Positions 19,045-34,091 of a stretch of DNA of 64,000 nt are shown piece by piece (within the stretch, counting starts at the first letter, position 1; each line of letters opens with the position of its first letter). The stretch lies in NCBI RefSeq assembly GCF_003019035.1, contig NZ_CP027447.1. One strand, given 5' to 3'. This DNA is from Escherichia coli (GTDB lineage: Bacteria; Pseudomonadota; Gammaproteobacteria; Enterobacterales; Enterobacteriaceae). A program made the position numbers and the translations under genes. The notes below the pieces were generated by a model. It searched no databases and was not told the origin of the DNA. It saw only the letters and a program-made list of their open reading frames with translations.

Positions 19045-22000
19045 ATGAGACACTTTATCTATCAGGACGAAAAATCACATAAATTCTGGGCGGTGGAGCA
19101 GCAGGGAAACGAGTTGCATATCTGTTGGGGAAAAGTTGGCACCAAAGGGCAAAACCAAGTAAAAAGTTTTGCGGATGCTGCGGCAGCGGCAAAAGCGGAG
19201 CTTAAGCTGATCGCGGAGAAGGTGAAGAAGGGATATGTGGAGCAAGCGAAGGATAATTCTTTGCAACCTTCCCAAACGGTAACGGACTCTCTCAAGGTAG
19301 CGGACTTATCCACCATTATTCAGGAACAACCCTCTTTCGTAGCAGAAACCCGTGCGGCTGACAAAAATACAGATGCTGTTTTACCGTGGCTGGCAAAAGA
19401 TATTGCTGTCGTTTTTCCGCTTGAAGTCGTACCCACCACCTTAAGCCATCGCCGCTTTCCCGGAGATCCTGTTACACCTGTAGATAAATTAACCCAGTTA
19501 CGTCGCTTAGCCTGTGGCGTGTCGCAACGGGATAACAAAACAGCTACATTTGACTTCAGCGCCTGTACTTTAGAGTGGCAAAACTTCATCGCTCAGGCGA
19601 TCGATCTGATTAACAGCCCGAAAACGACAAAATTACCATCACCGGTAATGGCTGTACTCGCGGCACTTGAACTGCACTGCACGAGATATAAAGAGCGTGA
19701 GGATGTTATGGATCAGATTATTCAGGAAGGCGGTCTGGAATATGCTACTGATGTAATAATACATCTTCAACAAATATCTATTGAATGGGATTATGTCAAC
19801 AATAATATTGTTTTCCTGTCGTCTGGCATTTCACCTGATTACTTGCAGCAATATTCCAGCTTTGAATTACGCCTACGTAAACATTTATCACTGGCGGAAG
19901 AGTCTCTCTGGCAAAAATGTGCACAAAAACTTATTGCCGCAGTTCCACATATTCCAGAATGGCGGCAACCATTAATTGCTTTGTTATTACCCGAAAAACC
20001 AGAAATTGCACATGAAATTGCCCAGCGTCTACTGGGGCAAAAGAAATTACCCTCGCTTGAGTGGCTAAAAATAGTGGCGACTGATGAGCACATTCTTGCC
20101 TCATTAGAAAAATATCACGAGCCATATGCCATTTTTGATGATTACTATTGTGGTGCGATATGGTCAGCCACCGTATTACAGGAGCAAGGTGTTGCAGCCC
20201 TGCCCCGATTTGCACCCTATGTCGCAAGTGACTACTGCGCCGATGTGTTGAGTCATATCAATCATCCGTTCGCATTAACACTGCTTATACGTGTAGCCGG
20301 GCATACTAAACGCTGTCACGATCGAATGACGAAAGCCTGCGCTGCGTTCCCACACGCAGCACTGGCAGCACTGGCGGAACTTCTAGTGCAAAAAGAAGAG
20401 AATAGTTGGCGCATTATGCTAATGACGATGCTTATCTCGCAACCTACACTAGCAGAACAGGTCATTCCCTGGCTTTCGACACCCGCAGTTGCAGTGCTGA
20501 AATCATGCCAGCAACAACTGAAACAGCCCTCAAACCATGCCAGTGCCGATCTACTGCCGGCCATAGTAGTCTCCCCACCATGGCTTTCGAAAAAGAAAAA
20601 ATCGCCGATTCCGGTGCTTGATTTAGCACCGCTCAACCTCGAATCCATATGCACAATAACCGACACAGAAGCTAAAGAGTTTCAAACTCATTGGGACTGG
20701 GAACCGCATAAGCCAGGTGAAGGTGCTAAAGATTTCCTTTACTCGCTGGGGTATCGCCGCTGGGATTTTGACACATATAAATATATCGGCGCTTCTGACT
20801 CGGCAATTGACGCATGGGAACGTGAGGACTTCGCTACACTCATCCAAATGTTTAAAGCCCACCATGCACCGTATCAGGGGGAGTGGCATCTCAACTCACT
20901 TCCCTTTTTACCTATGCAAAAAGCGATTAAACTATGGGAATTTCTCAGCAAAGAGCCGCATACCGCGGTAAAACCTGTCATGCTTTATTTGCGACTGGCA
21001 GGTATGAGTGGTTTTCTACACTCGTTTTCACGCTACCCTCAAGAAGGTTTTGCGGTTGCTAATTATTTTGCCGCAACGGAACTGGCTCCTGCCGTCGCCC
21101 GCGCCTTTAACAAACTCAAAACTCTACGACAAGACGCCCGCACCTGGCTGCTGAAATATCCGGAACATGCCATTACCGGCCTGTTGCCTGCGGCACTCGG
21201 CAAAGCCGGTGAATCCCAGGATAACGCCCGTGCCGCTTTACGTATGTTGATTGAAAATGGTTATCCGTCATTACTGCAAGAAATCGCCCAGCGTTATAAC
21301 CAGCCGGAAGTAACCGATGCGGTGAACGCTCTACTTGCGCTCGATCCCTTAGATAATCACCCGACTAAAATCCCGACACTTCCGGCCTTTTATCAGCCAT
21401 CGCTCTGGACGCGCCCGGTATTAAAAGCAAACGCCCAATCACTGCCAGATAGCGCCCTCTTCCACCTCGGTGAAATGCTCCGCTTCCCTCAGGAAGATAC
21501 GCTGTATCCGGGGTTATTACAGGTGAAAGACGCCTGTACTGCCGACTCACTGGCTGAGTTTGCCTGGGATCTGTTTACCGCCTGGCAGACCGCTGGCGTG
21601 CCGTCGAAAGAGAGCTGGGCGTTCACTGCATTAGGTGTTCTTGGCAACGATGACACCGCCCGCAAACTGACGCCATTAATCCGCGCCTGGCCTGGCGAAT
21701 CTCAGCATAAACGTGCCACCGTTGGGTTGGATATTCTCGCTGCTATCGGCAGCGATATCGCCCTGATGCAGCTTAACGGCATCGCCCAGAAACTGAAATT
21801 CAAAGCCTTACAGGAGCGGGCGAAAGAAAAAATTGCCGACATTGCCGAAAGTCGCGAACTCACAGTGGCAGAACTTGAAGATCGGTTAGCACCGGATCTC
21901 GGTCTGGATGATAACGGTTCGCTGCTGCTGGATTTCGGGCCACGGCAGTTCACCGTCAGCTTTGATGAAACCTTAAAACCGTTTGTGCGTGATGCTTCCG

Positions 22001-22833
22001 GCAGCCGCCTGAAAGACTTGCCTAAACCGAACAAAAGCGATGATGAAACCCAAGCGAACGATGCAGTTAACCGCTACAAACTGTTGAAAAAAGATGCGCG
22101 TACCGTTGCCGCCCAGCAGGTAGCAAGGCTGGAATCCGCCATGTGCCTGCGCCGCCGCTGGTCGCCGGAAAACTTTCAGCTCTTCCTGGTTGAGCATCCG
22201 CTGGTTCGCCACTTAACCCGCCGTCTGATTTGGGGCGTTTATAGCACCGAAAACGAGCTACTGGCTTGCTTTCGCGTGGCGGAAGATAACAGCTACAGCA
22301 CCGCAGACGATGATCTTTTCACCCTGCCGGAAGGCGATATCTCTGTTGGCATTCCTCACGTTCTGGAAATATCACCCACGGATGCTGCCGCCTTTGGTCA
22401 ACTTTTTGCCGACTACGAACTGCTACCGCCGTTCCGCCAGCTCGACCGTAACAGTTACGCCCTGACAGAAGCCGAGCGCAACGCCAGCGAACTGACCCGC
22501 TGGGCAGGCAGAAAATGCCCGAGCGGTCGGGTAATGGGGCTGGCGAATAAAGGCTGGATAAAGGGCACCCCGCAGGATGGAGGCTGGATCGGCTGGATGA
22601 TCAAACCTCTCGGTCGCTGGTCGTTAATCATGGAAATCAATGAAGGATTTGCAGTTGGTATGTCGCCAGCCGAACTCAGTGCCGAGCAACTCTTAAGTAA
22701 GCTGTGGCTATGGGAAGGCAAAGCGGAAAGCTATGGCTGGGGGAGCAATTCAACACAGGAAGCGCAGTTCTCCGTACTCGATGCCATCACCGCCAGCGAG
22801 CTAATTAACGATATTGAAGCCCTTTTTGAATAA
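19045..22833 (+). CDS. molR: Giant WGR-like-domain protein (1262 aa); intact molR-type ORF (pseudogene fragments in K-12)
   Basis: N-terminus FWAVEQQGNELHICWGKVGTKGQ.. fits a WGR-like domain; paralogous to the adjacent yehI over most of its length; continuous 3789-nt ORF without frameshift. Confidence 0.85.
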   Translation: MRHFIYQDEKSHKFWAVEQQGNELHICWGKVGTKGQNQVKSFADAAAAAKAELKLIAEKVKKGYVEQAKDNSLQPSQTVTDSLKVADLSTIIQEQPSFVAETRAADKNTDAVLPWLAKDIAVVFPLEVVPTTLSHRRFPGDPVTPVDKLTQLRRLACGVSQRDNKTATFDFSACTLEWQNFIAQAIDLINSPKTTKLPSPVMAVLAALELHCTRYKEREDVMDQIIQEGGLEYATDVIIHLQQISIEWDYVNNNIVFLSSGISPDYLQQYSSFELRLRKHLSLAEESLWQKCAQKLIAAVPHIPEWRQPLIALLLPEKPEIAHEIAQRLLGQKKLPSLEWLKIVATDEHILASLEKYHEPYAIFDDYYCGAIWSATVLQEQGVAALPRFAPYVASDYCADVLSHINHPFALTLLIRVAGHTKRCHDRMTKACAAFPHAALAALAELLVQKEENSWRIMLMTMLISQPTLAEQVIPWLSTPAVAVLKSCQQQLKQPSNHASADLLPAIVVSPPWLSKKKKSPIPVLDLAPLNLESICTITDTEAKEFQTHWDWEPHKPGEGAKDFLYSLGYRRWDFDTYKYIGASDSAIDAWEREDFATLIQMFKAHHAPYQGEWHLNSLPFLPMQKAIKLWEFLSKEPHTAVKPVMLYLRLAGMSGFLHSFSRYPQEGFAVANYFAATELAPAVARAFNKLKTLRQDARTWLLKYPEHAITGLLPAALGKAGESQDNARAALRMLIENGYPSLLQEIAQRYNQPEVTDAVNALLALDPLDNHPTKIPTLPAFYQPSLWTRPVLKANAQSLPDSALFHLGEMLRFPQEDTLYPGLLQVKDACTADSLAEFAWDLFTAWQTAGVPSKESWAFTALGVLGNDDTARKLTPLIRAWPGESQHKRATVGLDILAAIGSDIALMQLNGIAQKLKFKALQERAKEKIADIAESRELTVAELEDRLAPDLGLDDNGSLLLDFGPRQFTVSFDETLKPFVRDASGSRLKDLPKPNKSDDETQANDAVNRYKLLKKDARTVAAQQVARLESAMCLRRRWSPENFQLFLVEHPLVRHLTRRLIWGVYSTENELLACFRVAEDNSYSTADDDLFTLPEGDISVGIPHVLEISPTDAAAFGQLFADYELLPPFRQLDRNSYALTEAERNASELTRWAGRKCPSGRVMGLANKGWIKGTPQDGGWIGWMIKPLGRWSLIMEINEGFAVGMSPAELSAEQLLSKLWLWEGKAESYGWGSNSTQEAQFSVLDAITASELINDIEALFE

Positions 22834-22842
22834 GGAAAGAGC

Positions 22843-25800
22843 ATGGACAAGGAATTACCGTGGCTGGCGGATAACGCGCAACTGGAACTGAAATATAAAA
22901 AGGGTAAAACACCACTCAGCCATCGCAATTGGCCGGGTGAACCGGTGCCTGTTATCACTGAAAGCATCATCCAGACACTGGGTGATGAATTGCTACACAT
23001 TGCTGAGAAGAAAAAAAACATTGTCTGGCGTTATGATAATTTTTCACTGGAGTGGCAGTCCGCCATCACGCAGGCCATCAACTTGATCGGCGAACACAAA
23101 CCCTCAATCCCGGCCCGGACAATGGCGGCGCTAGCCTGTATCGCGCAAAATGATAGCCAACAGTTACTCGACGAAATCGTCCAACAAGAGGGACTGGAAT
23201 ATGCGACTGAAGTGGTGATTGCACGCCAGTTTATTGTACGGTGTTATGAGAGTGATCCTCTGGTAGTAACATTGCAGTATCAGAAGGAGGACTATGGCTA
23301 TGGCTATGGCTATGGCTATGGCTATGGCTATGGTTATCGCTCAGAAACCTATAACGAATTCGATCTCCGACTGCGTAAGCATCTCTCTCTGGCAGAGGAA
23401 AGCTGCTGGCAGCGTTGCGCCGACAAACTCATTGCCGCACTGCCAGGACTACCCCAAGTTCGCCGTCCTTTTATTGCACTCATCCTCCCGGAAAAACCAG
23501 AAATCGCCAATGAGTTGGTAGGCCTTGAATGCCCGTGGACTCATTTTCATTCTAAGGAGTGGTTAAAAGTTGTTGCTACTGACCACAGGGCAGTGGGAAA
23601 ACTCGAACGCTACTGGAGCCAGGATATATTTAGCGATCGCGAAGCCAGCTACATGTCGCATGAAAACCACTTCGGCTACGCGGCCTGCGCCGCCCTTTTG
23701 CGCGAACAAGGAATTGCAGCCGTTCCACGCCTCGCGATGTATGCCCATAAAGAAGATTGCGGTAGCCTGCTGGTACAAATTAACCATCCGCAGGTCATCC
23801 GCACCCTGCTGTTAGTTGCTGATAAAAACAAACCCAGCCTGCAACGTGTGGCTAAATACAGTAAAAACTTCCCCCATGCGACGCTTGCCGCACTGGCAGA
23901 GCTTCTGGCGTTAAAAGAACCGCCTGCACGCCCTGGTTATCCAATCATCGAAGACAAAAAGCTGCCTGCACAGCAAAAAGCTCGAGATGAATACTGGCGT
24001 ACGCTGTTACAAACGCTGATGGCATCGCAGCCACAACTGGCAGAAGAGGTGATGCCGTGGTTAAGTACTCAAGCCCAGGCAGTGCTGAATAGTTATTTAT
24101 CGGCACCGCCCAAAACGGTTATTGATAGCACCGATAACATCCAAATGCCTGAAATCCTCGTTTCACCACCGTGGCGTAGTAAGAAAAAAATGACAGTTCC
24201 ACGTCTTGATTTGGCACCGTTCGAATTAACGCCGCAAGTTTACTGGCAACCAGGCGAACGAGAGAGGCTTGCCGCCACTGAGTCTGCCCGTTATTTCAGC
24301 ACGGAATCTCTTGCGGAACGCATGGAACAAAAAAGTGGACGAGTTGTATTACAGGAGCTGGGTTTTGGAGATGATGTATGGCTGTTTTTGAATTATATAC
24401 TCCCCGGAAAACTGGATGCTGCACGCAATTCACTCATTGTTCAGTGGCATTACTACCCAGGGCGGGTTGAAGAGATCATGAATGGCTGGAGCTCCCCGGA
24501 AGCTCAATTAGCAGAACAGGCGCTTCGCAACGGTCACGTAGAAGTGTTAATTAACATATGGGAAAATGACAGCTACTCACGCTATCGTCGGGAAAAGAGT
24601 ATCTGGAACCTGTATTTATTGGCGCAGTTGCCGCGTGAGATGGCTTTGACTTTCTGGCTACGTATCAATGAGAAAAAGCATCTGTCTGCGGGTGAGGACT
24701 ATTATCTCAGTATCTTCGGATTGGATGCTCTACCAGGTCTGCTGTTGGCTTTTTCACATCGTCCAAAAGAAACATTTCCATTAATTTTAAATTTCGGCGC
24801 AACAGAACTGGCCCTGCCCGTTGCCCGCGTCTGGCGACGTTTCGCGGCGCAGCGTGATCTGGCTCGCCAGTGGATTTTACATTGGCCGGAACATACAGCT
24901 ACTGCACTTATCCCTCTTGTCTTCACCAAATCCAGCGATAATAGCGAAGCTGCATTACTTGCCCTGCGTTTACTTTACGAACAGGGACATGGCGAGTTAC
25001 TGCAAACCGTGGCAAACCGCTGGCAGCGTACAGATGTGTGGCCTGCCCTGGAGCAATTACTTAAACAGAGTCCAATAGAGATTTACCCGACACGCATTCC
25101 AAAAGCCCCTGATTTCTGGCAGCCGGCAATGTGGTCCAGGCCGCGCCTTATCACGAATAATCAACCTGTTACCGATGACGCTCTGGAAATTATCGGCGAA
25201 ATGCTGTGCTTTACCCAGGGCGGACGTTTTTATAGCGGACTGGAACAACTGAAAACTTTCTGCCAGCCGCAAACGCTGGCAGCTTTTGCCTGGGATCTCT
25301 TCACCGCGTGGCAACAAGCTGGTGCTACCGCAAAAGACAACTGGGCATTTCTGGCGTTAAGTCTCTTTGGCGACGAAAGCACGGCACGGGATCTGACGAC
25401 ACAGATCCTTGCCTGGCCACAAGAGGGCAAATCTGCCCGTGCTGTCAGTGGTCTGAATATACTTACTCAGATGAATAATGATATGGCACTGATACAGCTG
25501 CATCATATATCGCAACGGGCGAAATCCCGCCCCTTACGTGATAACGCGGCGGAATTTCTTCAGGTGGTCGCAGAAAATCGTGGGCTAAGCCAGGAACAGT
25601 TAGCGGACAGATTAGTCCCAACACTGGGTCTTGATGATCCGCAGGCGTTGAGTTTTGATTTTGGTCCCCGGCAGTTTACCGTTCGCTTTGATGAAAACCT
25701 TAACCCGGTTATCTTTGATCAGCAAAACGTTCGCCAGAAAAGCGTTCCCCGGTTGCGCGCCGATGACGATCAACTGAAAGCGCCCGAGGCACTGGCCCGA

Positions 25801-26505
25801 CTAAAAGGGCTAAAAAAAGATGCCACTCAGGTGAGCAAAAACCTGCTCCCACGTCTTGAAACTGCCCTGCGCACCACCCGACGCTGGTCGCTGGCAGATT
25901 TTCATTCTCTGTTTGTTAATCATCCCTTTACCCGCCTGGTTACTCAGCGATTGATATGGGCGGTTTATCCGGCAAATGAACCGCGTCGTTTACTCAACGC
26001 CTTTCGTGTGGCCGCTGAGGGGGAGTTCTGCAATGAGCAAGATGAGCCAATTGACCTGCCTGCCGATGCTCTGATTGGCATTGCCCACCCGTTAGAAATG
26101 ACAGCAGAAATGCGCAGTGAATTTGCACAGCTTTTTGCCGATTACGAAATTATGCCGCCTTTTCGCCAGTTGACGCGGCGCACAGTGCTGCTCACGCCTG
26201 ACGAGTCAGCCAGTAATAGTTTGAATCGCTGGGAAGGTAAATCTGCTACCGTTGGGCAGCTTATGGGAATGCGATACAAAGGCTGGGAGTCAGGCTATGA
26301 GAACGCATTTGTCTATGACCTGGGCGAGTACCGGCTGGTCCTTAAGTTTTCATCCGGTTTTAACCACTACAATGTTGATAGCAAAGCGCTAATGAGCTTC
26401 CGTTCTCTTCATGTATACCGTGACAATAAATCTGTCACTTTTGCCGAACTTGATGTGTTTGATTTGAGTGAAGCGTTAAGCGCACCCGACGTCATTTTCC
26501 ATTAA
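22843..26505 (+). CDS. yehI: Giant uncharacterised protein (1220 aa), tandem paralog of molR; C-terminal region of the type annotated DUF4132
   Basis: AAGGAAAGA RBS; shares blocks with molR (..QEGLEYATEVVI.., ..DLRLRKHLSLAEES.., ..GPRQFTVRFDE.., ..LFADYEIMPPFRQL..); contains in-frame Tyr-Gly repeat. Confidence 0.88.
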   Translation: MDKELPWLADNAQLELKYKKGKTPLSHRNWPGEPVPVITESIIQTLGDELLHIAEKKKNIVWRYDNFSLEWQSAITQAINLIGEHKPSIPARTMAALACIAQNDSQQLLDEIVQQEGLEYATEVVIARQFIVRCYESDPLVVTLQYQKEDYGYGYGYGYGYGYGYRSETYNEFDLRLRKHLSLAEESCWQRCADKLIAALPGLPQVRRPFIALILPEKPEIANELVGLECPWTHFHSKEWLKVVATDHRAVGKLERYWSQDIFSDREASYMSHENHFGYAACAALLREQGIAAVPRLAMYAHKEDCGSLLVQINHPQVIRTLLLVADKNKPSLQRVAKYSKNFPHATLAALAELLALKEPPARPGYPIIEDKKLPAQQKARDEYWRTLLQTLMASQPQLAEEVMPWLSTQAQAVLNSYLSAPPKTVIDSTDNIQMPEILVSPPWRSKKKMTVPRLDLAPFELTPQVYWQPGERERLAATESARYFSTESLAERMEQKSGRVVLQELGFGDDVWLFLNYILPGKLDAARNSLIVQWHYYPGRVEEIMNGWSSPEAQLAEQALRNGHVEVLINIWENDSYSRYRREKSIWNLYLLAQLPREMALTFWLRINEKKHLSAGEDYYLSIFGLDALPGLLLAFSHRPKETFPLILNFGATELALPVARVWRRFAAQRDLARQWILHWPEHTATALIPLVFTKSSDNSEAALLALRLLYEQGHGELLQTVANRWQRTDVWPALEQLLKQSPIEIYPTRIPKAPDFWQPAMWSRPRLITNNQPVTDDALEIIGEMLCFTQGGRFYSGLEQLKTFCQPQTLAAFAWDLFTAWQQAGATAKDNWAFLALSLFGDESTARDLTTQILAWPQEGKSARAVSGLNILTQMNNDMALIQLHHISQRAKSRPLRDNAAEFLQVVAENRGLSQEQLADRLVPTLGLDDPQALSFDFGPRQFTVRFDENLNPVIFDQQNVRQKSVPRLRADDDQLKAPEALARLKGLKKDATQVSKNLLPRLETALRTTRRWSLADFHSLFVNHPFTRLVTQRLIWAVYPANEPRRLLNAFRVAAEGEFCNEQDEPIDLPADALIGIAHPLEMTAEMRSEFAQLFADYEIMPPFRQLTRRTVLLTPDESASNSLNRWEGKSATVGQLMGMRYKGWESGYENAFVYDLGEYRLVLKFSSGFNHYNVDSKALMSFRSLHVYRDNKSVTFAELDVFDLSEALSAPDVIFH
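23293..23334 (+). repeat. In-frame hexanucleotide microsatellite (TATGGC)6 + TATGGT encoding a (Tyr-Gly)n tract inside yehI
   Basis: Six perfect TATGGC units 23293-23328 plus one TATGGT, in the yehI reading frame; absent from the paralogous position in molR. Confidence 0.9.
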
Positions 26506-26510
26506 AACAC

Positions 26511-26542
26511 AGCGGGCAGTGATGCGACTGCCCGTTATTAAC
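26511..26542 (+). terminator. Hairpin downstream of yehI (possible terminator/attenuator)
   Basis: CGGGCAGT-gatgcg-ACTGCCCG stem-loop (26513-26534) followed by TTATTAAC. Confidence 0.5.
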
Positions 26543-26565
26543 ACGACCTGCCACCGGGGGAAGCG

Positions 26566-26886
26566 ATGATCGTGCAAAAAGAGCTGGTCACTATTTACGA
26601 TTATGAGGCCCCTGTACCTGAAGAGCCGTTTTCCTTCAGACTTGAGATCCATAAATGCTCTGAATTATTTACAGGTTCCATCTACCGGCTGGAGCGATTC
26701 CGGCTACATCCAACATTTCATCAACGTGATCGAGAGGATATCGACCCGCTAATAAATGATGCGTTGATTTATATAAGAGATGAGTTTATTGATGAGCGAA
26801 AATTACGGGGCGAATCACCAGAAACGGTAATAGCCATTTTTAATCGTGAACTACAGAATATATTCAACCAAGAAATAGAAAAATAG
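26566..26886 (+). CDS. yehK: Small acidic protein of unknown function, 106 aa
   Basis: ORF with GGGGGAAGCG upstream; no recognisable motif; recalled as YehK. Confidence 0.8.
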   Translation: MIVQKELVTIYDYEAPVPEEPFSFRLEIHKCSELFTGSIYRLERFRLHPTFHQRDREDIDPLINDALIYIRDEFIDERKLRGESPETVIAIFNRELQNIFNQEIEK

Positions 26887-26894
26887 CTTTATTA

Positions 26895-26920
26895 AAGGGG
26901 GGAAACGGTATTCCCCCTTA
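26895..26920. terminator. Bidirectional GC hairpin between convergent yehK and the small toxin-like gene
   Basis: GGGGGG-aaacggtatt-CCCCC stem-loop flanked by A/T; placed between the 3' ends of yehK (+) and the 29-codon ORF (-). Confidence 0.5.
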
Positions 26921-26940
26921 GATGCGTTTCAATTTGCCCG

Positions 26941-27030
26941 TTACTTCAACAAATCAATCAGCCGTAACAGAGCCACTAATAACTCCAGTACGGCAATGAG
27001 CACGGTTAACTTTTGTGTCAGCGTGTCCAT
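26941..27030 (-). CDS. zorO: 29-aa hydrophobic peptide, type I toxin-like (ZorO-like)
   Basis: Minus-strand ATG (27028-27030) with AAGGAGAG SD; translates to MDTLTQKLTVLIAVLELLVALLRLIDLLK, a single predicted TM helix; matches my recollection of ZorO from O157:H7; long structured 5' leader with an antisense target site. Confidence 0.65.
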   Translation of the reverse strand: MDTLTQKLTVLIAVLELLVALLRLIDLLK

Positions 27031-27211
27031 CCGCTCTCCTTATTAAGGAGCGCAACACCAGCATCTTACCCTTACACTGCCTGTCGATACTGGTTTACGT
27101 ATGTTGGACCACGATGTTGCACTCCGGATCAGGGCACTACCTGCGGCACCACCCGTCCGGTAGCCAGGACTTGAAATGGGTTCGATCCGGCGCAACGTCC
27201 CAACAGTCAGG

Positions 27212-27262
27212 ATTATAAATCTCATTATCTTAATTGCAACGGGGTCCACCGATGGTTATAAT
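27212..27262. promoter_or_regulatory. Back-to-back sigma70-like promoters sharing one palindromic -35 hexamer (TTGCAA): minus-strand promoter for the toxin mRNA and plus-strand promoter for the antisense sRNA
   Basis: Plus: TTGCAA (27234-27239) -17 nt- TATAAT (27257-27262); minus: TTGCAA -16 nt- TATAAT (complement of 27212-27217); the minus promoter predicts a ~170-nt 5' UTR for the toxin. Confidence 0.55.
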
Positions 27263-27268
27263 TCGTTC

Positions 27269-27352
27269 GTTGGAACACGATGTTGCACAGGCCGTGGTGT
27301 TAGGCCTGAAAGTAGTAAATAAAAGAACCTGCCTCACCAGCAGGTTTTTTTA
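27269..27352 (+). ncRNA. orzO: Candidate antitoxin sRNA (OrzO-like), ~80 nt, divergent from the toxin gene
   Basis: Starts ~7 nt after TATAAT; 5' seed GTTGGAACACGATGTTGCAC (27269-27288) is 19/20 identical to 27103-27122, so it is complementary to the toxin mRNA leader; internal hairpin CAGGCC..GGCCTG; ends in intrinsic terminator. Confidence 0.55.
27326..27352 (+). terminator. Rho-independent terminator of the candidate sRNA
   Basis: AACCTGC-ctcacca-GCAGGTT stem-loop followed by TTTTTTT. Confidence 0.8.
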
Positions 27353-27462
27353 TTTACTATGATCTGCTTTCCAGATATTTTCCGCTCAAACAACTAATGC
27401 GCCAAACATTTATTGCGCGTAAAATATCGTTTATTTCATTAATACATTTCAGGGATGAATAT

Positions 27463-28551
27463 ATGTCACCGCAGAATAATCATCTGCAGCGTCCGCCTGC
27501 CGCTGTGTTATACGCCGATGAACTGGCAAAATTAAAACAAAATGATCACGCACCTTGCCCGCCCGGTTGGCAGTTAAGTTTGCCTGCGGCCCGTGTTTTT
27601 ATCCTTGGCGACGAAGCACAAAATATTAGCCGTAAAGTCGTGATTAGCCCCTCCGCTGTCGAACGCATGTTAGTCACTCTCGCTACCGGGCGCGGTTTGA
27701 TGTTGGTGGGGGAACCTGGCACCGCAAAATCGCTCCTGTCTGAATTACTGGCAACCGCTATTAGCGGCGATGCCGGGTTAACCATCCAGGGCGGCGCATC
27801 TACTACTGAAGATCAAATCAAGTACGGCTGGAACTACGCCCTGCTTATCAACCATGGTCCGTCAACGGAAGCACTGGTCCCTGCCCCGCTTTACCAGGGA
27901 ATGCGCGACGGCAAAATCGTCCGTTTTGAAGAGATAACGCGTACACCGCTGGAAGTACAAGACTGTCTGTTAGGTATGCTTTCTGACAGGGTGATGACGG
28001 TGCCGGAGCTCACCGCTGAAGCCAGTCAGCTCTATGCGCGGGAAGGCTTTAATATTATTGCCACTGCCAATACCCGCGATCGCGGCGTCAATGAAATGAG
28101 TGCTGCGCTAAAGCGTCGTTTCGATTTTGAAACTGTCTTTCCGATTATGGATTTCGCTCAGGAGCTGGAGCTTGTCGCCAGTGCTTCGGCGCGTTTGCTG
28201 GCCCATAGCGGTATTCCGCATAAAGTGCCTGACGCGGTACTGGAGTTACTGGTCCGCACCTTCCGCGATCTGCGTGCCAACGGCGAAAAGAAAACGTCAA
28301 TGGATACACTAACAGCGATTATGTCCACCGCTGAAGCCGTGAACGTGGCCCACGCTGTGGGCGTCCGCGCCTGGTTTTTAGCGAATCGCGCAGGTGAGCC
28401 AGCCGATCTGGTGGACTGTATTGCCGGAACCATCGTCAAAGATAACGAAGAAGATCGCGCGCGTCTGCGCCGTTACTTCGAACAGCGAGTCGCCACACAT
28501 AATGAAGCTCACTGGCAGGCTTATTATCAAGCTCGCCACCGCCTGCCGTGA
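27463..28551 (+). CDS. yehL: MoxR-like AAA+ ATPase (CbbQ/NirQ/NorQ-type), 362 aa
   Basis: Walker A LMLVGEPGTAKS, Walker B-like KIVRFEEITR; start ATG 27463 (MSPQNNHLQRPP..) chosen over ORF-track 27397. Confidence 0.9.
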   Translation: MSPQNNHLQRPPAAVLYADELAKLKQNDHAPCPPGWQLSLPAARVFILGDEAQNISRKVVISPSAVERMLVTLATGRGLMLVGEPGTAKSLLSELLATAISGDAGLTIQGGASTTEDQIKYGWNYALLINHGPSTEALVPAPLYQGMRDGKIVRFEEITRTPLEVQDCLLGMLSDRVMTVPELTAEASQLYAREGFNIIATANTRDRGVNEMSAALKRRFDFETVFPIMDFAQELELVASASARLLAHSGIPHKVPDAVLELLVRTFRDLRANGEKKTSMDTLTAIMSTAEAVNVAHAVGVRAWFLANRAGEPADLVDCIAGTIVKDNEEDRARLRRYFEQRVATHNEAHWQAYYQARHRLP

Positions 28552-28561
28552 GGAAAGATGC

Positions 28562-30841
28562 ATGAGCGAGCCGTTAATTGTCGGCATCCGGCATCATAGT
28601 CCGGCCTGCGCCCGGCTGGTGAAATCGTTAATCGAAAGCCAGCGGCCACGATACGTGTTGATTGAAGGCCCGGCTGATTTTAATGACCGGGTAGACGAAC
28701 TGTTGTTAGCCCACCAGCTTCCGGTAGCTATTTACAGTTATTGCCAGTATCAGGATGGTGCGGCCCCCGGGCGTGGTGCCTGGACGCCATTTGCTGAATT
28801 TTCGCCGGAGTGGCAGGCGCTACAAGCCGCACGTCGTATTCAGGCACAAACTTACTTCATCGATTTGCCTTGCTGGGCACAAAGTGAAGAAGAGGACGAT
28901 TCGCCTGATACGCAAGAGGAAAGCCAGACCTTGCTGCTGCGTGCCACCCGCATGGATAACAGCGACACCCTGTGGGATCACTTGTTCGAAGATGAAAGCC
29001 AGCAAACTGCATTACCCTCTGCACTGGCGCACTATTTTGCCCAACTGCGGGGCGACGCCTCCGGCGATGCACTCAATCGTCAGCGCGAAGCCTTTATGGC
29101 CCGCTGGATTGCATGGGCGATGCAGCAAAATAATGGCGACGTATTAGTCGTCTGCGGAGGCTGGCACGCTCCGGCACTGGCAAAAATGTGGCGCGAATGC
29201 CCGCAAGAAATTAACACGCCAGAATTGCTCTTACTGGATGATGCCGTTACAGGTTGCTATCTCACGCCATACAGTGAAAAGCGCCTTGATGTGCTGGCAG
29301 GATACCTTTCAGGAATGCCTGCCCCGGTCTGGCAAAACTGGTGCTGGCGGTGGGGCTTGCAGCAGGCAGGTGAACAACTGCTGAAAACGGTTCTTACCCG
29401 TTTGCGCCAGCACCACTTGCCTGCTTCAACAGCGGATATGGCTGCCGCTCATCTGCATGCGATGGCACTGGCACAGTTGCGCGGTCATACACTACCGTTA
29501 CGCACTGACTGGCTGGATGCCATAGCAGGATCGCTGATTAAAGAAGCCCTGAATGCGCCGTTGCCGTGGAGCTATCGCGGCGTTATTCATCCCGATACCG
29601 ATCCGATTCTGCTAACGTTGATAGACACATTAGCGGGTGACGGATTCGGTAAACTTGCCCCTTCTACGCCACAACCGCCTCTGCCAAAAGATGTCACCTG
29701 CGAACTGGAACGTACCGCAATCTCTCTTCCGGCGGAGCTTACCTTAAATCGCTTTACCTCCGATGGACTGGCGCAAAGTCAGGTGTTACATCGGCTGGTA
29801 ATACTGGAGATCCCAGGGGTTGTGCGCCAGCAGGGAAGTACACTGACACTTGCAGGCAACGGTGAAGAACGCTGGAAATTAACCCGCCCGCTTAGCCAAC
29901 ATGCGGCATTAATTGAGGCCGCCTGCTTTGGTGCCACACTCCAGGAAGCCGCACGCCATAAATTAGAAGCCGATATGCTGGACGCGGGTGGAATCGGCAG
30001 TATCACCACATGTCTTAGCCAGGCGGCGTTAGCGGGTCTGGCGTCCTTCAGTCAACAATTACTGGAGCAACTTACATTATTAATCGCCCAGGAAAATCAG
30101 TTTGCCGAAATGGGCCAGGCGCTGGAAGTGCTATACGCCTTATGGCGGCTGGATGAAATTAGCGGTATGCAAGGCGCGCAGATATTACAGACGACGTTAT
30201 GCGCAGCTATCGATCGCACACTCTGGCTGTGTGAATCCAACGGCAGACCGGATGAAAAGGAGTTTCACGCTCACCTGCATAGCTGGCAAGCGCTTTGCCA
30301 TATCCTGCGCGATCTACATAGCGGCGTTAATTTACCCGGCGTTTCGCTTTCTGCGGCGGTAGCCTTACTGGAGCGCCGCAGTCAGGCGATTCATGCCCCG
30401 GCGCTGGATCGCGGCGCGGCTCTTGGCGCACTAATGCGTCTGGAACATCCCAACGCCAGTGCCGAAGCGGCGCTGACGATGCTGGCGCAGTTATCCCCGG
30501 CACAATCCGGCGAGGCGCTGCACGGTTTGCTGGCATTAGCCCGTCATCAACTGGCCTGTCAGCCGGCATTTATCGCCGGTTTCAGTAGTCATTTAAATCA
30601 ACTGAGTGACGACGATTTTATTAACGCCCTGCCCGATTTACGCGCGGCGATGGCCTGGCTACCACCACGAGAACGCGGGACGCTGGCGCATCAGGTGCTT
30701 GAGCATTACCAGCTCGCACAGCTTCCCATTTCAGCGCTGCAAATGCCGTTGCATTGTCCACCGCAAGCCATTGCACATCATCAACAACTCGAACAGCAGG
30801 CACTGGCATCGCTGCAACACTGGGGAGTTTTCCATGTCTGA
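28562..30841 (+). CDS. yehM: Large uncharacterised protein (759 aa), second gene of the yehLMPQ cassette
   Basis: ATG 10 nt after yehL stop with GAGGAAAGA RBS; Ala/Leu-rich, no motif I can recognise by eye; stop overlaps yehP start. Confidence 0.85.
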   Translation: MSEPLIVGIRHHSPACARLVKSLIESQRPRYVLIEGPADFNDRVDELLLAHQLPVAIYSYCQYQDGAAPGRGAWTPFAEFSPEWQALQAARRIQAQTYFIDLPCWAQSEEEDDSPDTQEESQTLLLRATRMDNSDTLWDHLFEDESQQTALPSALAHYFAQLRGDASGDALNRQREAFMARWIAWAMQQNNGDVLVVCGGWHAPALAKMWRECPQEINTPELLLLDDAVTGCYLTPYSEKRLDVLAGYLSGMPAPVWQNWCWRWGLQQAGEQLLKTVLTRLRQHHLPASTADMAAAHLHAMALAQLRGHTLPLRTDWLDAIAGSLIKEALNAPLPWSYRGVIHPDTDPILLTLIDTLAGDGFGKLAPSTPQPPLPKDVTCELERTAISLPAELTLNRFTSDGLAQSQVLHRLVILEIPGVVRQQGSTLTLAGNGEERWKLTRPLSQHAALIEAACFGATLQEAARHKLEADMLDAGGIGSITTCLSQAALAGLASFSQQLLEQLTLLIAQENQFAEMGQALEVLYALWRLDEISGMQGAQILQTTLCAAIDRTLWLCESNGRPDEKEFHAHLHSWQALCHILRDLHSGVNLPGVSLSAAVALLERRSQAIHAPALDRGAALGALMRLEHPNASAEAALTMLAQLSPAQSGEALHGLLALARHQLACQPAFIAGFSSHLNQLSDDDFINALPDLRAAMAWLPPRERGTLAHQVLEHYQLAQLPISALQMPLHCPPQAIAHHQQLEQQALASLQHWGVFHV

Positions 30842-31970
30842 ACTGAACGATCTTCTGACCACCCGTGAGCTACAACGCTGGCGATTAATTCTTGGCGAAG
30901 CGGCAGAAACGACGCTTTGTGGGCTGGATGACAACGCCCGGCAGATAGACCACGCGCTGGAGTGGCTGTACGGGCGCGATCCTGAACGGCTCCAGCGTGG
31001 TGAACGCTCTGGTGGATTAGGTGGCTCAAATCTCACCACCCCTGAGTGGATCAACAGTATTCACACGCTGTTTCCGCAACAGGTGATTGAGCGACTGGAA
31101 AGCGATGCCGTACTGCGCTACGGCATTGAAGATGTGGTGACGAATCTCGACGTGCTGGAACGTATGCAGCCTTCTGAAAGCCTGCTACGCGCCGTTTTGC
31201 ACACCAAACATCTGATGAATCCCGAAGTACTGGCTGCCGCCCGCCAGATAGTGCGCCAGGTTGTTGAAGAAATTATGGCTCGACTGGCAAAGGAAGTTCG
31301 TCAGGCTTTTTCTGGTGTCCGCGATCGCCGTCGCCGCTCATTTATTCCACTGGCGCGAAACTTTGATTTCAAAAGTACTCTGCGCGCCAACCTGCAACAC
31401 TGGCACCCGCAACACGGCAAGTTGTATATCGAATCCCCCCGCTTTAACAGCCGCATTAAACGCCAAAGCGAACAATGGCAACTGGTCTTACTGGTTGATC
31501 AAAGCGGATCAATGGTGGACTCGGTGATCCACTCAGCGGTGATGGCGGCCTGTTTATGGCAGTTACCCGGTATTCGTACCCATCTGGTGGCGTTTGACAC
31601 CAGCGTGGTTGATCTCACGGCAGACGTTGCCGATCCGGTAGAGTTATTAATGAAAGTGCAATTAGGCGGCGGAACCAATATCGCCAGTGCCATGGAATAT
31701 GGTCGGCAACTTATTGAACAACCAGCGAAAAGCGTCATTATCCTCGTGAGTGATTTTTATGAAGGGGGTTCATCATCATTGCTGACGCATCAGGTGAAAA
31801 AGTGTGTCCAGAGCGGCATCAAAGTGCTGGGGCTGGCAGCGCTCGACAGCACCGCAACGCCTTGCTATGACCGCGATATGGCCCAGGCGCTGGTTAATGT
31901 TGGCGCACAAATAGCCGCAATGACACCGGGTGAACTGGCTACCTGGCTTGCGGAGAATTTGCAGTCATGA
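30834..31970 (+). CDS. yehP: von Willebrand factor A (VWA) domain protein with MIDAS motif, 378 aa
   Basis: ATGTCTGA overlap with yehM stop; MIDAS-like LVLLVDQSGSM (DxSxS); ORF-track 5' extension rejected. Confidence 0.9.
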   Translation: MSELNDLLTTRELQRWRLILGEAAETTLCGLDDNARQIDHALEWLYGRDPERLQRGERSGGLGGSNLTTPEWINSIHTLFPQQVIERLESDAVLRYGIEDVVTNLDVLERMQPSESLLRAVLHTKHLMNPEVLAAARQIVRQVVEEIMARLAKEVRQAFSGVRDRRRRSFIPLARNFDFKSTLRANLQHWHPQHGKLYIESPRFNSRIKRQSEQWQLVLLVDQSGSMVDSVIHSAVMAACLWQLPGIRTHLVAFDTSVVDLTADVADPVELLMKVQLGGGTNIASAMEYGRQLIEQPAKSVIILVSDFYEGGSSSLLTHQVKKCVQSGIKVLGLAALDSTATPCYDRDMAQALVNVGAQIAAMTPGELATWLAENLQS

Positions 31971-33967
31971 ATTCACTACGTCCGGAATTATTAGAACTGA
32001 CGCCGCAGGCCCTGACGGCGTTAAGCAATGCCGGTTTTGTTAAGCGCAGTCTTAAGGAACTGGAAAATGGCAACGTCCCGGAAATCAGCCATGAGAACGG
32101 CGCTTTAATCGCCACCTTCAGTGACGGTGTCCGTACCCAACTGGCGAGCGGTCAGGCACTGAAAGAGGCCCGGTGCAGTTGCGGGGCCAGCGGCATGTGC
32201 CGCCATCGCGTGATGCTGGTGTTAAGTTATCAGCGACTTTGCGCCACCACTCAGCCCACGGAAAAAGAAGAAGAGTGGCAGCCTGCAATCTGGCTGGAAG
32301 AACTGGCTACCCTGCCCGATGCCACCCGCAAACGTGCACAGGCGCTGGTCGCTAAAGGCATCACCATTGAGTTATTCTGTGCGCCGGGCGAAATTCCCTC
32401 AGCCCGCTTACCGATGAGTGACGTGCGTTTTTATTCCCGCAGCAGCATTCGCTTCGCCCGCTGTGATTGCATTGAAGGAACGCTGTGTGAACATGTCGTA
32501 CTGGCGGTACAGGCCTTTGTCCAGGCCAAAACTCAGCAGGCGGAATTTACTCATTTAATCTGGCAGATGCGCAGCGAACACGTCACATCATCTGACGATC
32601 CGTTTGCCAGCGAAGAAGGCAACGCGTGTCGTCAATATGTTCAGCAATTAAGCCAGGCATTATGGCTTGGCGGCATCAGCCAGCCGCTTATTCACTACGA
32701 GGCCGCTTTCAGCCGCGCGCAGCAAGCGGCAGAGGCCTGCAACTGGCGCTGGGTGAGTGAGTCACTACGACAGCTACGGGCAAGCGTTGATGCCTTCCAC
32801 GCCCGCGCCAGTCACTATCATGCCGGAGAATGCTTACGTCAGCTTGCGGTATTAAACAGTCGATTAAATTGCGCACAAGAGATGGCGCGCCGCGACAGTA
32901 TCAGTGAAGTTCCTCCCATGCCGTGGCGAACGGTGGTTGGCGCAGGCATTGCTGGCGAAGCAAAGCTTGATCATTTGCGGCTGGTGTCGCTAGGTATGCG
33001 TTGCTGGCAGGATATTGAGCAGTATGGTTTACGCATCTGGTTTACCGATCCCGACACCGGCAGTATTTTGCACCTTTCGCGCAGTTGGCCGCGAAGTGAA
33101 CAGGAAAACTCACCGGCAGCGACGCGTCGGCTGTTGAGTTTTCAGGCAGGCGCGCTGGCGGGTGGACAAATTGTTTCACAGGCAGCGCGTCGCAGTGCCG
33201 AAGGCGAACTGCTATTCGCGACCCGCAACCGCTTAAGTAGCGTTGTGCCGCTGTCGCCAGACGCCTGGAAAATGCTGAGTGCGCCGCTGCGCCAGCCAGG
33301 CATTGTGGCTTTACGTGAATATTTACGCCAGCGTCCCCCCGCCTGCATACGACCACTCAACCAGGTCGATAACTTATTTATTCTGCCAGTCGCTGAGTGT
33401 ATTTCACTCGGTTGGGATAGCAGCCGCCAGACACTGGATGCGCAGGTAATCAGCGGCGAAGGTGAAGATAACGTGCTGACATTATCCCTACCAGCCTCTG
33501 CCTGTTCGCCCTTTGCTGTTGAACGCATGGCGGCGCTTTTGCAACAAACAGACGACCCCGTGAGTCTGGTTTCTGGCTTTGTCAGCTTTGTAGAGGGGCA
33601 ATTGACACTGGAACCACGGGTGATGATGACAAAAACCCGCGCCTGGGCGCTGGACGCAGAAACTGCGCCTGTAGCACCGCTACCTTCTGCCAGCGTTTTG
33701 CCTGTGCCGTCTACCGCTCATCAGTTGCTGATGCGCTGCCAGGCGTTACTTATTCAACTGCTCCATAACGGCTGGCGCTATCAGGAACAGAGTGCTATTG
33801 GTCAGGCAGAGTTGCTGGCGAATGACCTCACCGCGGTGGGTTTTTATCGGCTGGCACATGTGTTGGGACAATTTCGTAATACAGAAAGCGAGGCACGGGT
33901 AGAAGCAATGAATAACGGTGTTTTGCTTTGCGAACAATTATTCCCCATGCTTCAGCAACAAGGATGA
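31967..33967 (+). CDS. yehQ: SWIM zinc-finger protein, 666 aa
   Basis: ATGA overlap with yehP stop; two CxCxnCxH SWIM-type motifs (ARCSCGASGMCRHRV and ARCDCIEGTLCEHVV) in the N-terminal third. Confidence 0.88.
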   Translation: MNSLRPELLELTPQALTALSNAGFVKRSLKELENGNVPEISHENGALIATFSDGVRTQLASGQALKEARCSCGASGMCRHRVMLVLSYQRLCATTQPTEKEEEWQPAIWLEELATLPDATRKRAQALVAKGITIELFCAPGEIPSARLPMSDVRFYSRSSIRFARCDCIEGTLCEHVVLAVQAFVQAKTQQAEFTHLIWQMRSEHVTSSDDPFASEEGNACRQYVQQLSQALWLGGISQPLIHYEAAFSRAQQAAEACNWRWVSESLRQLRASVDAFHARASHYHAGECLRQLAVLNSRLNCAQEMARRDSISEVPPMPWRTVVGAGIAGEAKLDHLRLVSLGMRCWQDIEQYGLRIWFTDPDTGSILHLSRSWPRSEQENSPAATRRLLSFQAGALAGGQIVSQAARRSAEGELLFATRNRLSSVVPLSPDAWKMLSAPLRQPGIVALREYLRQRPPACIRPLNQVDNLFILPVAECISLGWDSSRQTLDAQVISGEGEDNVLTLSLPASACSPFAVERMAALLQQTDDPVSLVSGFVSFVEGQLTLEPRVMMTKTRAWALDAETAPVAPLPSASVLPVPSTAHQLLMRCQALLIQLLHNGWRYQEQSAIGQAELLANDLTAVGFYRLAHVLGQFRNTESEARVEAMNNGVLLCEQLFPMLQQQG

Positions 33968-34091
33968 AATAGTGCTTTTTATTAAGAGTTCTACTCCTGT
34001 TCCGGACTGCTCACGCCACAGTATTAGGCATATCCTATATAGCCCCTGGTGAGAGTCACCAGTTCCTTGATTAAATAAAATGGAGTTTTAC

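What the first reader, a model, noticed from the sequence alone, without database searches (positions are those of the whole stretch)
23293..23334. In-frame (TATGGC)n microsatellite encoding a poly(Tyr-Gly) tract in yehI
Six perfect and one imperfect hexamer repeats lie in frame. Hexamer slippage would change protein length by Tyr-Gly units without a frameshift, so this is a length-variable linker rather than an on/off switch. The paralogous position in molR has an unrelated linker, so the repeat is lineage-specific. A Tyr-Gly repeat is unusual in a cytoplasmic-looking bacterial protein.
Basis: seen in the sequence. Interest (0 to 1): 0.5.

Follow-up and report, generated by a model that had tools for sequence, protein, structure and literature searches.

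The report
Variable Tyr-Gly repeat in E. coli yehI
A six-base DNA repeat inside the E. coli gene yehI adds or removes Tyr-Gly pairs in a floppy protein loop and varies from 2 to 12 copies between strains; it is a real but ordinary coding microsatellite with no evidence yet of a function.

Summary
Window 23293-23334 is (TATGGC)6+TATGGT, in frame as codons 151-164 of yehI (22843-26505, 1220 aa).

The copy number varies between strains. K-12 and about 97% of roughly 4,700 complete E. coli genomes carry 2 units. Other genomes carry 3, 4 (57 genomes, including two ST648 strains), 5, 6, 7 (16 genomes, including SMS-3-5, ST354), 8, 9 or 12 units. All ten expanded alleles checked have an intact ORF.

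Every expanded allele I sequenced carries the same upstream codons, AAG-GAG-GAC (Lys-Glu-Asp). This suggests one origin followed by continuing change.

Genomes with nearly identical flanks differ in copy number:
- The window (7 units) and strain SCU-301 (12 units) differ by 2 SNPs in 64 kb.
- Two ST354-type genomes with 8 and 9 units show 0 SNPs in 20 kb.

This fits replication slippage. The tract falls in a low-confidence loop of an otherwise confident AlphaFold model, at the most indel-rich spot of the family alignment. The paralogue MolR and the Klebsiella orthologues lack it.

It cannot act as an on/off switch. It is not one of the ten generic E. coli MLVA loci. Whether loop length matters for function was not tested. 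Interest is modest: a new member of a known kind.

The parts
23293..23334 (+). Core array: (TATGGC)6 + TATGGT. It encodes (Tyr-Gly)7, residues 151-164 of YehI.
   Evidence: Only the number of TATGGC units changes between alleles. The last unit is always TATGGT.
23335..23340 (+). Degenerate eighth unit TATCGC (Tyr-Arg). It forms the fixed 3' boundary of the array.
   Evidence: It is present unchanged in every allele with 2 to 12 units.
23284..23292 (+). Codons AAG GAG GAC (Lys-Glu-Asp) just upstream of the array. This haplotype marker is linked to every expanded allele examined.
   Evidence: Every allele with 3 or more units and the TATCGC boundary has AAGGAGGAC (21 fetched loci from 12 genomes, plus one metagenome contig). 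All 31 two-unit alleles have GACGAGGAT, AACGAGGAC or AACGAGGAT.
22843..26505 (+). yehI ORF, 1220 aa. DUF4132 domain at residues 964-1148. The N-terminal helical domain carries the repeat loop.
   Evidence: PF13569, 160 bits against a cutoff of 27; RefSeq annotation; structure model.
19045..22833 (+). molR-like paralogue, 1262 aa (WGR + DUF4132), 37% identical to YehI. It lacks the YG tract at the aligned position.

Best explanation
The feature is an in-frame hexanucleotide microsatellite (VNTR) in yehI. Its ancestral state is a two-unit motif, TATGGC-TATGGT-TATCGC (YGYGYR), which is stable in nearly all E. coli. In one yehI haplotype the TATGGC unit was duplicated. The resulting pure array now gains and loses whole units by slipped-strand mispairing during replication, giving alleles of 3 to 12 units. 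Each unit adds one Tyr-Gly pair to a disordered surface loop in the N-terminal helical domain of YehI, between a beta-hairpin (residues 131-146) and a helix (172-183). The reading frame is never disturbed, so the change is only in loop length and not in expression. The variation is most likely neutral or nearly neutral.

Shown: the array, its frame, the allele series, the near-identical flanks and the position in the model. Inferred: slippage as the mechanism, and near-neutrality.
For: 1. Allele series. Sequenced alleles of 2, 3, 4, 5, 6, 7, 8, 9 and 12 units differ only by whole TATGGC units. The terminal TATGGT-TATCGC is always kept.

2. Frequencies among about 4,700 complete genomes. The top-60 ranking shows 16 genomes with 7 units, 4 with 8, 2 with 9, 1 with 6, 3 with 5 and 1 with 12. 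A 224-bp four-unit query gives 57 records at >=99% identity, which means exactly 4 units. It gives 24 records at 95-99% (mostly 3 or 5 units) and 4,635 at 90-95% (mostly 2 units). Of 59 evenly spaced records with full-length matches, 57 have 2 units. The first spread sample gave 55 of 58. Of 28 metagenome contigs, 27 have 2 units and one has 3.

3. The repeat changes faster than point substitution.
- Window (7 units) vs SCU-301 (12 units): 2 SNPs in 64 kb.
- 702/18 (8 units) vs GN03551 (9 units): 0 SNPs in 20 kb.
- 702/18 vs EC17CM2 (5 units): 1 SNP in 20 kb.
- IMT16316 (4 units) vs 806883-9-2019 (5 units): 3 SNPs in 20 kb.

4. Longer arrays look less stable. In the SMS-3-5-type haplotype, 8 of 24 genomes depart from the modal 7 units. 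In the four-unit haplotype, 2 of about 59 depart.

5. The expanded arrays are pure, with no synonymous interruptions. This argues for recent mutational growth rather than old protein-level selection.

6. All expanded alleles carry the same upstream Lys-Glu-Asp codons, consistent with a single origin.

7. Tolerance to length change. The AlphaFold2 model of residues 1-440 has mean pLDDT 82.7 and pTM 0.83. Residues 152-165 are below pLDDT 50 and have no secondary structure. In a family alignment this is the most length-variable segment.

8. Literature. E. coli O157 hexanucleotide VNTRs mutate by slippage, in single and multi-unit steps including +5 units, and rates are reported to correlate with repeat number (PMC3777172).
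Against: No slippage event was observed directly. Everything rests on comparing assemblies. The near-clonal pairs were chosen because they differ, so any rate estimate is biased upward. Isolates are not independent: three n=8 dog isolates and two n=9 isolates look like single clones. The 7 versus 12 difference between the window and SCU-301 could include an assembly error in one of them. Neutrality is assumed, not tested. YehI has no known function, and a Gly-Tyr tract is not inert chemically: synthetic GYGYGYG peptides self-assemble (PMC8163036).
Confidence: 0.72

Rival explanations
1. The tract is a selected 'tuning knob'. Loop length changes YehI activity or a partner interaction, for example with the neighbouring YehL (MoxR-type AAA+), YehM, YehP (VWA) and YehQ (SWIM) proteins. 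Copy-number variants are then kept because different lengths are favoured in different niches.
For: Expanded alleles persist in successful lineages. Seven units occur in 16 genomes from humans, chickens, water and a pangolin. Four units occur in 57 genomes. The ten expanded alleles checked keep an intact ORF. The gene sits beside a conserved MoxR/VWA/SWIM gene set.
Against: About 97% of genomes do well with two units. The arrays are codon-pure, which indicates recent growth. The tract lies in a low-confidence loop at the least conserved part of the family. yehI is a pseudogene in several strains, which suggests weak constraint. No copy number is associated with a host or source in the lists seen.
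Confidence: 0.15
2. The allele differences come mainly from homologous recombination, by import of yehI segments that carry different array lengths, rather than from slippage in place.
For: The locus is mosaic. The window is identical to the SMS-3-5 haplotype across about 22-25 kb but about 2% divergent on both sides. So an expanded yehI segment has moved between backgrounds at least once.
Against: Genomes with 0-3 SNPs over 20-64 kb still differ in copy number. Import of a foreign segment would bring SNPs with it. Recombination explains how the expanded haplotype spread, not the series of unit numbers within it.
Confidence: 0.06
3. The tract gives length-dependent self-association. Beyond some length the (Tyr-Gly)n loop drives YehI into assemblies, a prion-like or condensate-like behaviour.
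For: Synthetic GYGYGYG heptapeptides form amyloid-like fibrils (PMC8163036; related titles). The window allele contains that heptapeptide several times over. The tract is exposed and disordered in the model.
Against: There are no data on YehI. A 14-24 residue loop anchored at both ends in a 1,220-aa folded protein differs greatly from a free heptapeptide. Codon purity argues for recent, unselected growth.
Confidence: 0.05
4. The copy-number differences are sequencing or assembly artefacts, or the repeat is an on/off phase-variation switch.
For: Long-read-only assemblies can miscount short repeats. SCU-301 is the only 12-unit record.
Against: The same counts recur in many independent assemblies: 16 genomes with 7 units and 57 with 4. 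A 42-72 bp array is shorter than a short read. A 6-bp unit cannot shift the frame, and the ten expanded alleles checked are intact. The array is 450 bp inside the ORF, not in a promoter.
Confidence: 0.02

Closest known systems
Hexanucleotide VNTR loci used for E. coli O157:H7 MLVA typing (for example O157-10 and the Vhec loci)
   Same: 6-bp units in a tandem array. Whole-unit gains and losses are attributed to slipped-strand mispairing. Multi-unit jumps occur, and instability rises with copy number (PMC3777172). The yehI array shows the same allele-ladder behaviour among near-clonal genomes.
   Different: The yehI array is short and fixed (2 units) in most E. coli, so it is informative only in one haplotype. 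No mutation rate has been measured for it. I did not check whether any O157 or other scheme uses it. I found no paper linking yehI and VNTR.
CVN007, a locus of the generic E. coli MLVA scheme (GECM-10), lying in rcnA in this same window
   Same: An in-frame coding tandem repeat that changes the length of a low-complexity protein segment without a frameshift. Both published primers match the window exactly at 8716 and 9064. The 18-bp His-codon repeat is at 8837-8893.
   Different: 18-bp unit, a different gene, and already used for typing. The yehI repeat is not bracketed by any of the ten GECM-10 primer pairs.
Simple-sequence contingency loci (phase-variable genes of Haemophilus, Neisseria, Campylobacter)
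   Same: A repeat tract inside a gene whose length changes by slippage (general knowledge).
   Different: Contingency loci switch expression on and off, because the unit is not a multiple of three or the tract lies in a promoter. They usually affect surface or restriction-modification genes. Here the unit is 6 bp and in frame, inside a cytoplasmic-looking DUF4132 protein, and the alleles checked stay intact.
Prion-inspired (X-Tyr)n polar peptides such as GYGYGYG
   Same: The same alternating Gly-Tyr sequence.
   Different: Those are free synthetic heptapeptides. Here the tract is a loop within a large folded protein, and no assembly behaviour has been shown.

Membership tests
Bacterial coding VNTR / microsatellite evolving by slippage | Head-to-tail copies of a short unit, more than chance gives | tested here: met
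Bacterial coding VNTR / microsatellite evolving by slippage | Copy number differs between strains while flanks are conserved, and changes are whole units | tested here: met
   Alleles of 2, 3, 4, 5, 6, 7, 8, 9 and 12 units with flanks 0-4 mismatches apart. 0-3 SNPs per 20 kb and 2 SNPs per 64 kb between genomes that differ in copy number.
Bacterial coding VNTR / microsatellite evolving by slippage | Instability increases with the number of pure units | tested here: inconclusive
   Two units are fixed in about 97% of genomes. In the four-unit haplotype 2 of about 59 are variant. In the seven-unit haplotype 8 of 24 are variant. The direction is as expected, but the genomes are not independent samples.
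Bacterial coding VNTR / microsatellite evolving by slippage | Length variants arise within a clonal culture | not testable with these tools
   Needs read-level or amplicon data.
Phase-variable contingency locus (on/off switch) | A unit change shifts the reading frame or alters a promoter, so that expression toggles | tested here: not met
   The unit is 6 bp and lies 450 bp inside the ORF. The ten expanded alleles checked are annotated as intact ORFs.
Generic E. coli MLVA loci (GECM-10: CVN001-004, 007, 014-017, CCR001) | Locus bracketed by the published primer pair | tested here: not met
   Primers from PMC8143711 were searched in the window with up to 3 mismatches. Only the CVN007 pair matches, at 8716 and 9064, 14 kb away.
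YehI / MolR DUF4132 proteins | Pfam PF13569 above the gathering score, and the gene order metG - molR - yehI - yehK - yehLMPQ | tested here: met
   160 bits against a cutoff of 27. RefSeq annotation of SMS-3-5 and SCU-301.
Anti-phage defence systems catalogued in PADLOC | A match of YehI, MolR, YehK or YehL to a PADLOC model | tested here: not met
   No hits at E<=0.01.
Self-assembling (Gly-Tyr)n polar-zipper sequences | Alternating Gly-Tyr stretch of at least 7 residues | tested here: met
   Residues 151-165 are YGYGYGYGYGYGYGY.
Self-assembling (Gly-Tyr)n polar-zipper sequences | Self-assembly in the context of the native protein | not testable with these tools
   Needs experiments.

The most novel reading that the evidence does not exclude
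The (Tyr-Gly)n loop is a length-dependent functional element and not a passive passenger. Beyond a threshold length it changes YehI self-association or partner binding, as the amyloid-forming GYGYGYG peptides hint. Slippage would then give certain phylogroup F lineages a heritable, reversible dial on a poorly understood MoxR/VWA/SWIM-linked system.
Probability: 0.07. Interest if true: 0.6.

Novelty: new member of a known kind. Interest (0 to 1): 0.3.

Why it matters
E. coli has few long simple repeats. A coding hexamer array that changes between genomes only 0-3 SNPs apart over 20-64 kb could serve as a cheap high-resolution marker within the ST354 and ST648 lineages of phylogroup F, which include multidrug-resistant clones. 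It also gives a natural allele series for one loop of YehI, a 1,200-residue protein of unknown function beside the yehLMPQ genes. That series could be used to ask whether the loop matters. Otherwise this is a textbook case of an ordinary process. It shows a short imperfect motif staying stable until one extra perfect unit pushes it past the slippage threshold.

Tried and rejected
- Literature. No paper in the library mentions yehI, Escherichia coli and VNTR together. The yehI + 'tandem repeat' hits were irrelevant. A search for the repeat string found only unrelated primers and the GYGYGYG peptide papers.
- Known MLVA locus. All ten GECM-10 primer pairs were tested. None brackets the repeat.
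- Defence-system membership. No PADLOC hits for YehI, MolR, YehK or YehL.
- Fold of the N-terminal domain. Foldseek against the PDB found nothing significant. The best matches were ARM/PUF-type solenoids at E about 0.08 and TM about 0.2.
- Word-indexed protein search of the N-terminal 419 residues. It returned mostly truncated or chimeric E. coli fragments. These were useful only as extra tract variants. The exhaustive representative search was more useful: only 123 clusters.
- Metagenome scan for 7 or more units: zero hits. A broader scan gave 28 contigs, 27 with 2 units and one with 3.
- Source strain. I first took the window to be SMS-3-5. It is not. Outside the 5' part of yehI it is about 2% divergent from SMS-3-5 and essentially identical to SCU-301.
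- RNA element. Rfam found none overlapping the repeat.

Full report
OBSERVATION. Window 23293-23334 reads TATGGC six times and then TATGGT. A degenerate TATCGC follows. Tandem Repeats Finder reports the array as 23292-23341, period 6, 8.3 copies, score 86, the highest score in the window. The array lies in frame in the ORF 22843-26505 (1220 aa). It encodes YGYGYGYGYGYGYG-YR at residues 151-166. A three-unit probe has 5 hits in the window and none in 100 dinucleotide-preserving shuffles. No other hexamer reaches three perfect tandem copies in the 64 kb, against 0.005 expected per simulated window.

WHAT THE GENE IS. RefSeq annotates the ORF as yehI, a 'DUF4132 domain-containing protein', in near-identical genomes. 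Pfam finds DUF4132 at residues 964-1148 (160 bits, cutoff 27). The gene order is metG, an intact molR-like paralogue (WGR + DUF4132, 1262 aa), yehI, yehK, yehL (AAA_5, MoxR-like), yehM (DUF5682), yehP (VWA), yehQ (SWIM). None of YehI, MolR, YehK or YehL matches a PADLOC defence model. The function of YehI is unknown.

SOURCE OF THE WINDOW. The 642 bp around the repeat differ by one base from SMS-3-5 and its relatives. Over 20-30 kb, however, the window is about 2% divergent from SMS-3-5 on both sides of a shared 22-25 kb segment. Only strain SCU-301 is >=99% identical over window 25000-34000. Across the whole 64 kb the window differs from SCU-301 by two SNPs (12245 and 14839) plus 30 bp in the repeat. 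No complete genome in the collection is an exact match.

COPY NUMBER ACROSS E. COLI. I read the array in fetched sequences. The counts are below.
- K-12: 2 units (TATGGC TATGGT).
- Other strains: 3, 4, 5, 6, 7, 8, 9 and 12 units.
- Alleles of 4 or more units differ only in the number of TATGGC units.
- All alleles end in TATGGT-TATCGC.
- Three units occur in two forms: TATGGC TATGGT TATGGT and TATGGC TATGGC TATGGT.
- A divergent allele class reads TATGGC TACGGT TATGGC TCC GCG (YGYGYGSA).

Frequencies come from three sources. The 60 best records for the window query hold 16 genomes with 7 units, 4 with 8, 2 with 9, 1 with 6, 3 with 5 and 1 with 12, followed by a long run with 4 units. A 224-bp four-unit query, in which one unit of difference costs 2.6% identity, gives 57 records at >=99%, 24 at 95-99% and 4,635 at 90-95%. 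Of its 59 evenly spaced rows with full-length matches, 57 have 2 units. The first evenly spaced sample gave 55 of 58. An independent scan of metagenome contigs gave 27 of 28 with 2 units and one with 3. A scan for 7 or more units found none. So about 97% of E. coli carry 2 units and about 2-3% carry an expanded array. These tallies are inferred from alignment lengths and identity bands, not from reading every sequence.

WHICH LINEAGES. Every allele with 3 or more units and the TATCGC boundary has the codons AAG-GAG-GAC (Lys-Glu-Asp) directly upstream. Every two-unit allele has Asp-Glu-Asp or Asn-Glu-Asp codons (21 expanded loci from 12 genomes plus one metagenome contig, and 31 two-unit loci). 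This points to one origin of the expanded state. SMS-3-5 (7 units) is ST354. IMT16316 and Ecol_881 (4 units) are ST648. A reference title cited in the paper places the ST648 complex within phylogroup F.

TEMPO AND MECHANISM. Genomes that are almost identical around the locus differ in copy number:
- 702/18 (8 units) vs GN03551 (9 units): 0 SNPs in 20 kb.
- 702/18 vs EC17CM2 (5 units): 1 SNP in 20 kb.
- IMT16316 (4 units) vs 806883-9-2019 (5 units): 3 SNPs in 20 kb.
- Window (7 units) vs SCU-301 (12 units): 2 SNPs in 64 kb.

The array therefore changes on the time scale on which a 20-64 kb region collects zero to three substitutions. Departure from the modal count is commoner in the seven-unit haplotype (8 of 24 genomes) than in the four-unit one (2 of about 59). 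It is absent at two units. This is the direction expected if instability grows with the number of pure units. The genomes are not independent, so I rate this point inconclusive. The arrays are codon-pure, which argues for recent mutational growth. These properties match slipped-strand mispairing as described for E. coli O157 hexanucleotide VNTRs. Those loci show single and multi-unit steps, including +5 units, and rates that are reported to correlate with copy number (PMC3777172). Recombination has moved the expanded yehI segment between backgrounds at least once, as the mosaic shows. It cannot explain different counts on identical flanks.

POSITION IN THE PROTEIN. MolR aligns with YehI at 37% identity. 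At this point it reads '...GISPDY', then a gap, then 'LQQYSSFELRLRKHLSLAEES'. It has no YG tract. An exhaustive search found only 123 representative clusters for the N-terminal 419 residues. In an alignment of 39 homologues plus YehI, the tract lies in the most length-variable segment. That segment sits between the conserved helix 'EYATEVVIARQFI' and the conserved helix 'FDLRLRKHLSLAEE'. YGYGYR, or xGYGYR, is present in all Escherichia-like YehI sequences down to about 75-83% identity. The 50%-identical orthologues, named Klebsiella oxytoca and K. spallanzanii by their sources, read 'NVWRSCTY' instead. An AlphaFold2 model of residues 1-440 built on a 28-sequence alignment is confident overall (mean pLDDT 82.7, pTM 0.83). 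Residues 152-165 fall below pLDDT 50, without secondary structure, between a beta-hairpin (131-134, 141-146) and helix 172-183. Foldseek finds no significant PDB match for the domain. The tract is thus an exposed, probably disordered loop within a helical domain. Such a place tolerates insertions.

INTERPRETATION. The best-supported reading is a slippage-driven, in-frame coding microsatellite whose length variation is neutral or nearly so (confidence about 0.7). The shown steps are the array, the frame, the allele ladder, the near-clonal pairs, the haplotype linkage and the loop position. Slippage and neutrality are inferred. An on/off switch is excluded by the 6-bp unit and the intact ORFs. 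Artefact is unlikely because the same counts recur in many independent assemblies. A selected 'tuning knob' cannot be excluded (about 0.15). A speculative variant is length-dependent self-association, suggested by the amyloid-forming synthetic peptide GYGYGYG. I give it about 0.05.

COMPARISON WITH WHAT IS KNOWN. The locus behaves like the hexanucleotide VNTRs used for MLVA typing. It is not one of the ten generic E. coli MLVA loci. I searched the published primers in the window, and only the CVN007 pair matched, 14 kb away in rcnA. I found no paper linking yehI to a VNTR. I therefore file it as a new member of a known kind.

VERDICT. The feature is ordinary in kind. Its main practical value is as a possible fine-scale marker in ST354- and ST648-type lineages and as a natural allele series for one loop of an uncharacterised protein. 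Interest 0.3.

Noticed in passing
window 8716-9084 (repeat at 8837-8893): Both published primers of the generic E. coli MLVA locus CVN007 match here exactly. They bracket an 18-bp His-codon tandem repeat (CATCACCACGATCACGAA, 3.2 copies) that lies in rcnA by RefSeq coordinates. The 369-bp amplicon corresponds to allele 3 by the published formula.
   Followed up: partly
window 26941-27030 (-) and 27276-27351 (+): The yehK-yehL intergenic region holds a 29-aa hydrophobic ORF (MDTLTQKLTVLIAVLELLVALLRLIDLLK). It also holds an Rfam OrzO-P antitoxin RNA match (98.9 bits, gathering score 60). This matches the type I toxin-antitoxin described between yehI and yehL in O157:H7 (z3289/z3290; PMC2887945). 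It appears here as a single copy.
   Followed up: partly
window 19045-22833: The molR-like paralogue is intact here (1262 aa, WGR + DUF4132). It is interrupted by IS1 in strain EC332 (L019) and frameshifted in WB61 (L023). The gene seems dispensable in some lineages.
   Followed up: partly
window about 22000-25000 versus its flanks: Mosaic structure. The window is identical to the SMS-3-5 (ST354) haplotype over the 5' part of yehI but about 2% divergent on both sides. It matches SCU-301 over all 64 kb apart from 2 SNPs. This suggests a recombination tract carrying the expanded repeat.
   Followed up: partly
L004, L005, L006 (yehI of strains SMN152SH1, APEC17, Z1323CEC0019): yehI is annotated as a pseudogene (frameshift or internal stop) in these strains. 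L005 and L006 carry a divergent allele class (YGYGYGSATYNDFD, units TATGGC TACGGT TATGGC) that aligns to only half of the 642-bp query.
   Followed up: no
window 27397-33967 (yehL, yehM, yehP, yehQ): Downstream genes encode a MoxR-type AAA+ protein (AAA_5, with a weak bpMoxR hit), a DUF5682 protein, a VWA protein and a SWIM zinc-finger protein. Of the four, only YehL was scanned against PADLOC, and it had no hit. The N-terminal domain shared by YehI and MolR has only 123 representative clusters in 1.8 billion proteins and no PDB fold match.
   Followed up: partly
P0001, P0009, P0016, P0019, P0037, P0050 (protein database entries): Several database 'proteins' join the YehI N-terminus to YehL, YehP or other sequences. 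They are probably deletions or misassemblies in draft or metagenome contigs and should not be read as real fusions.
   Followed up: no
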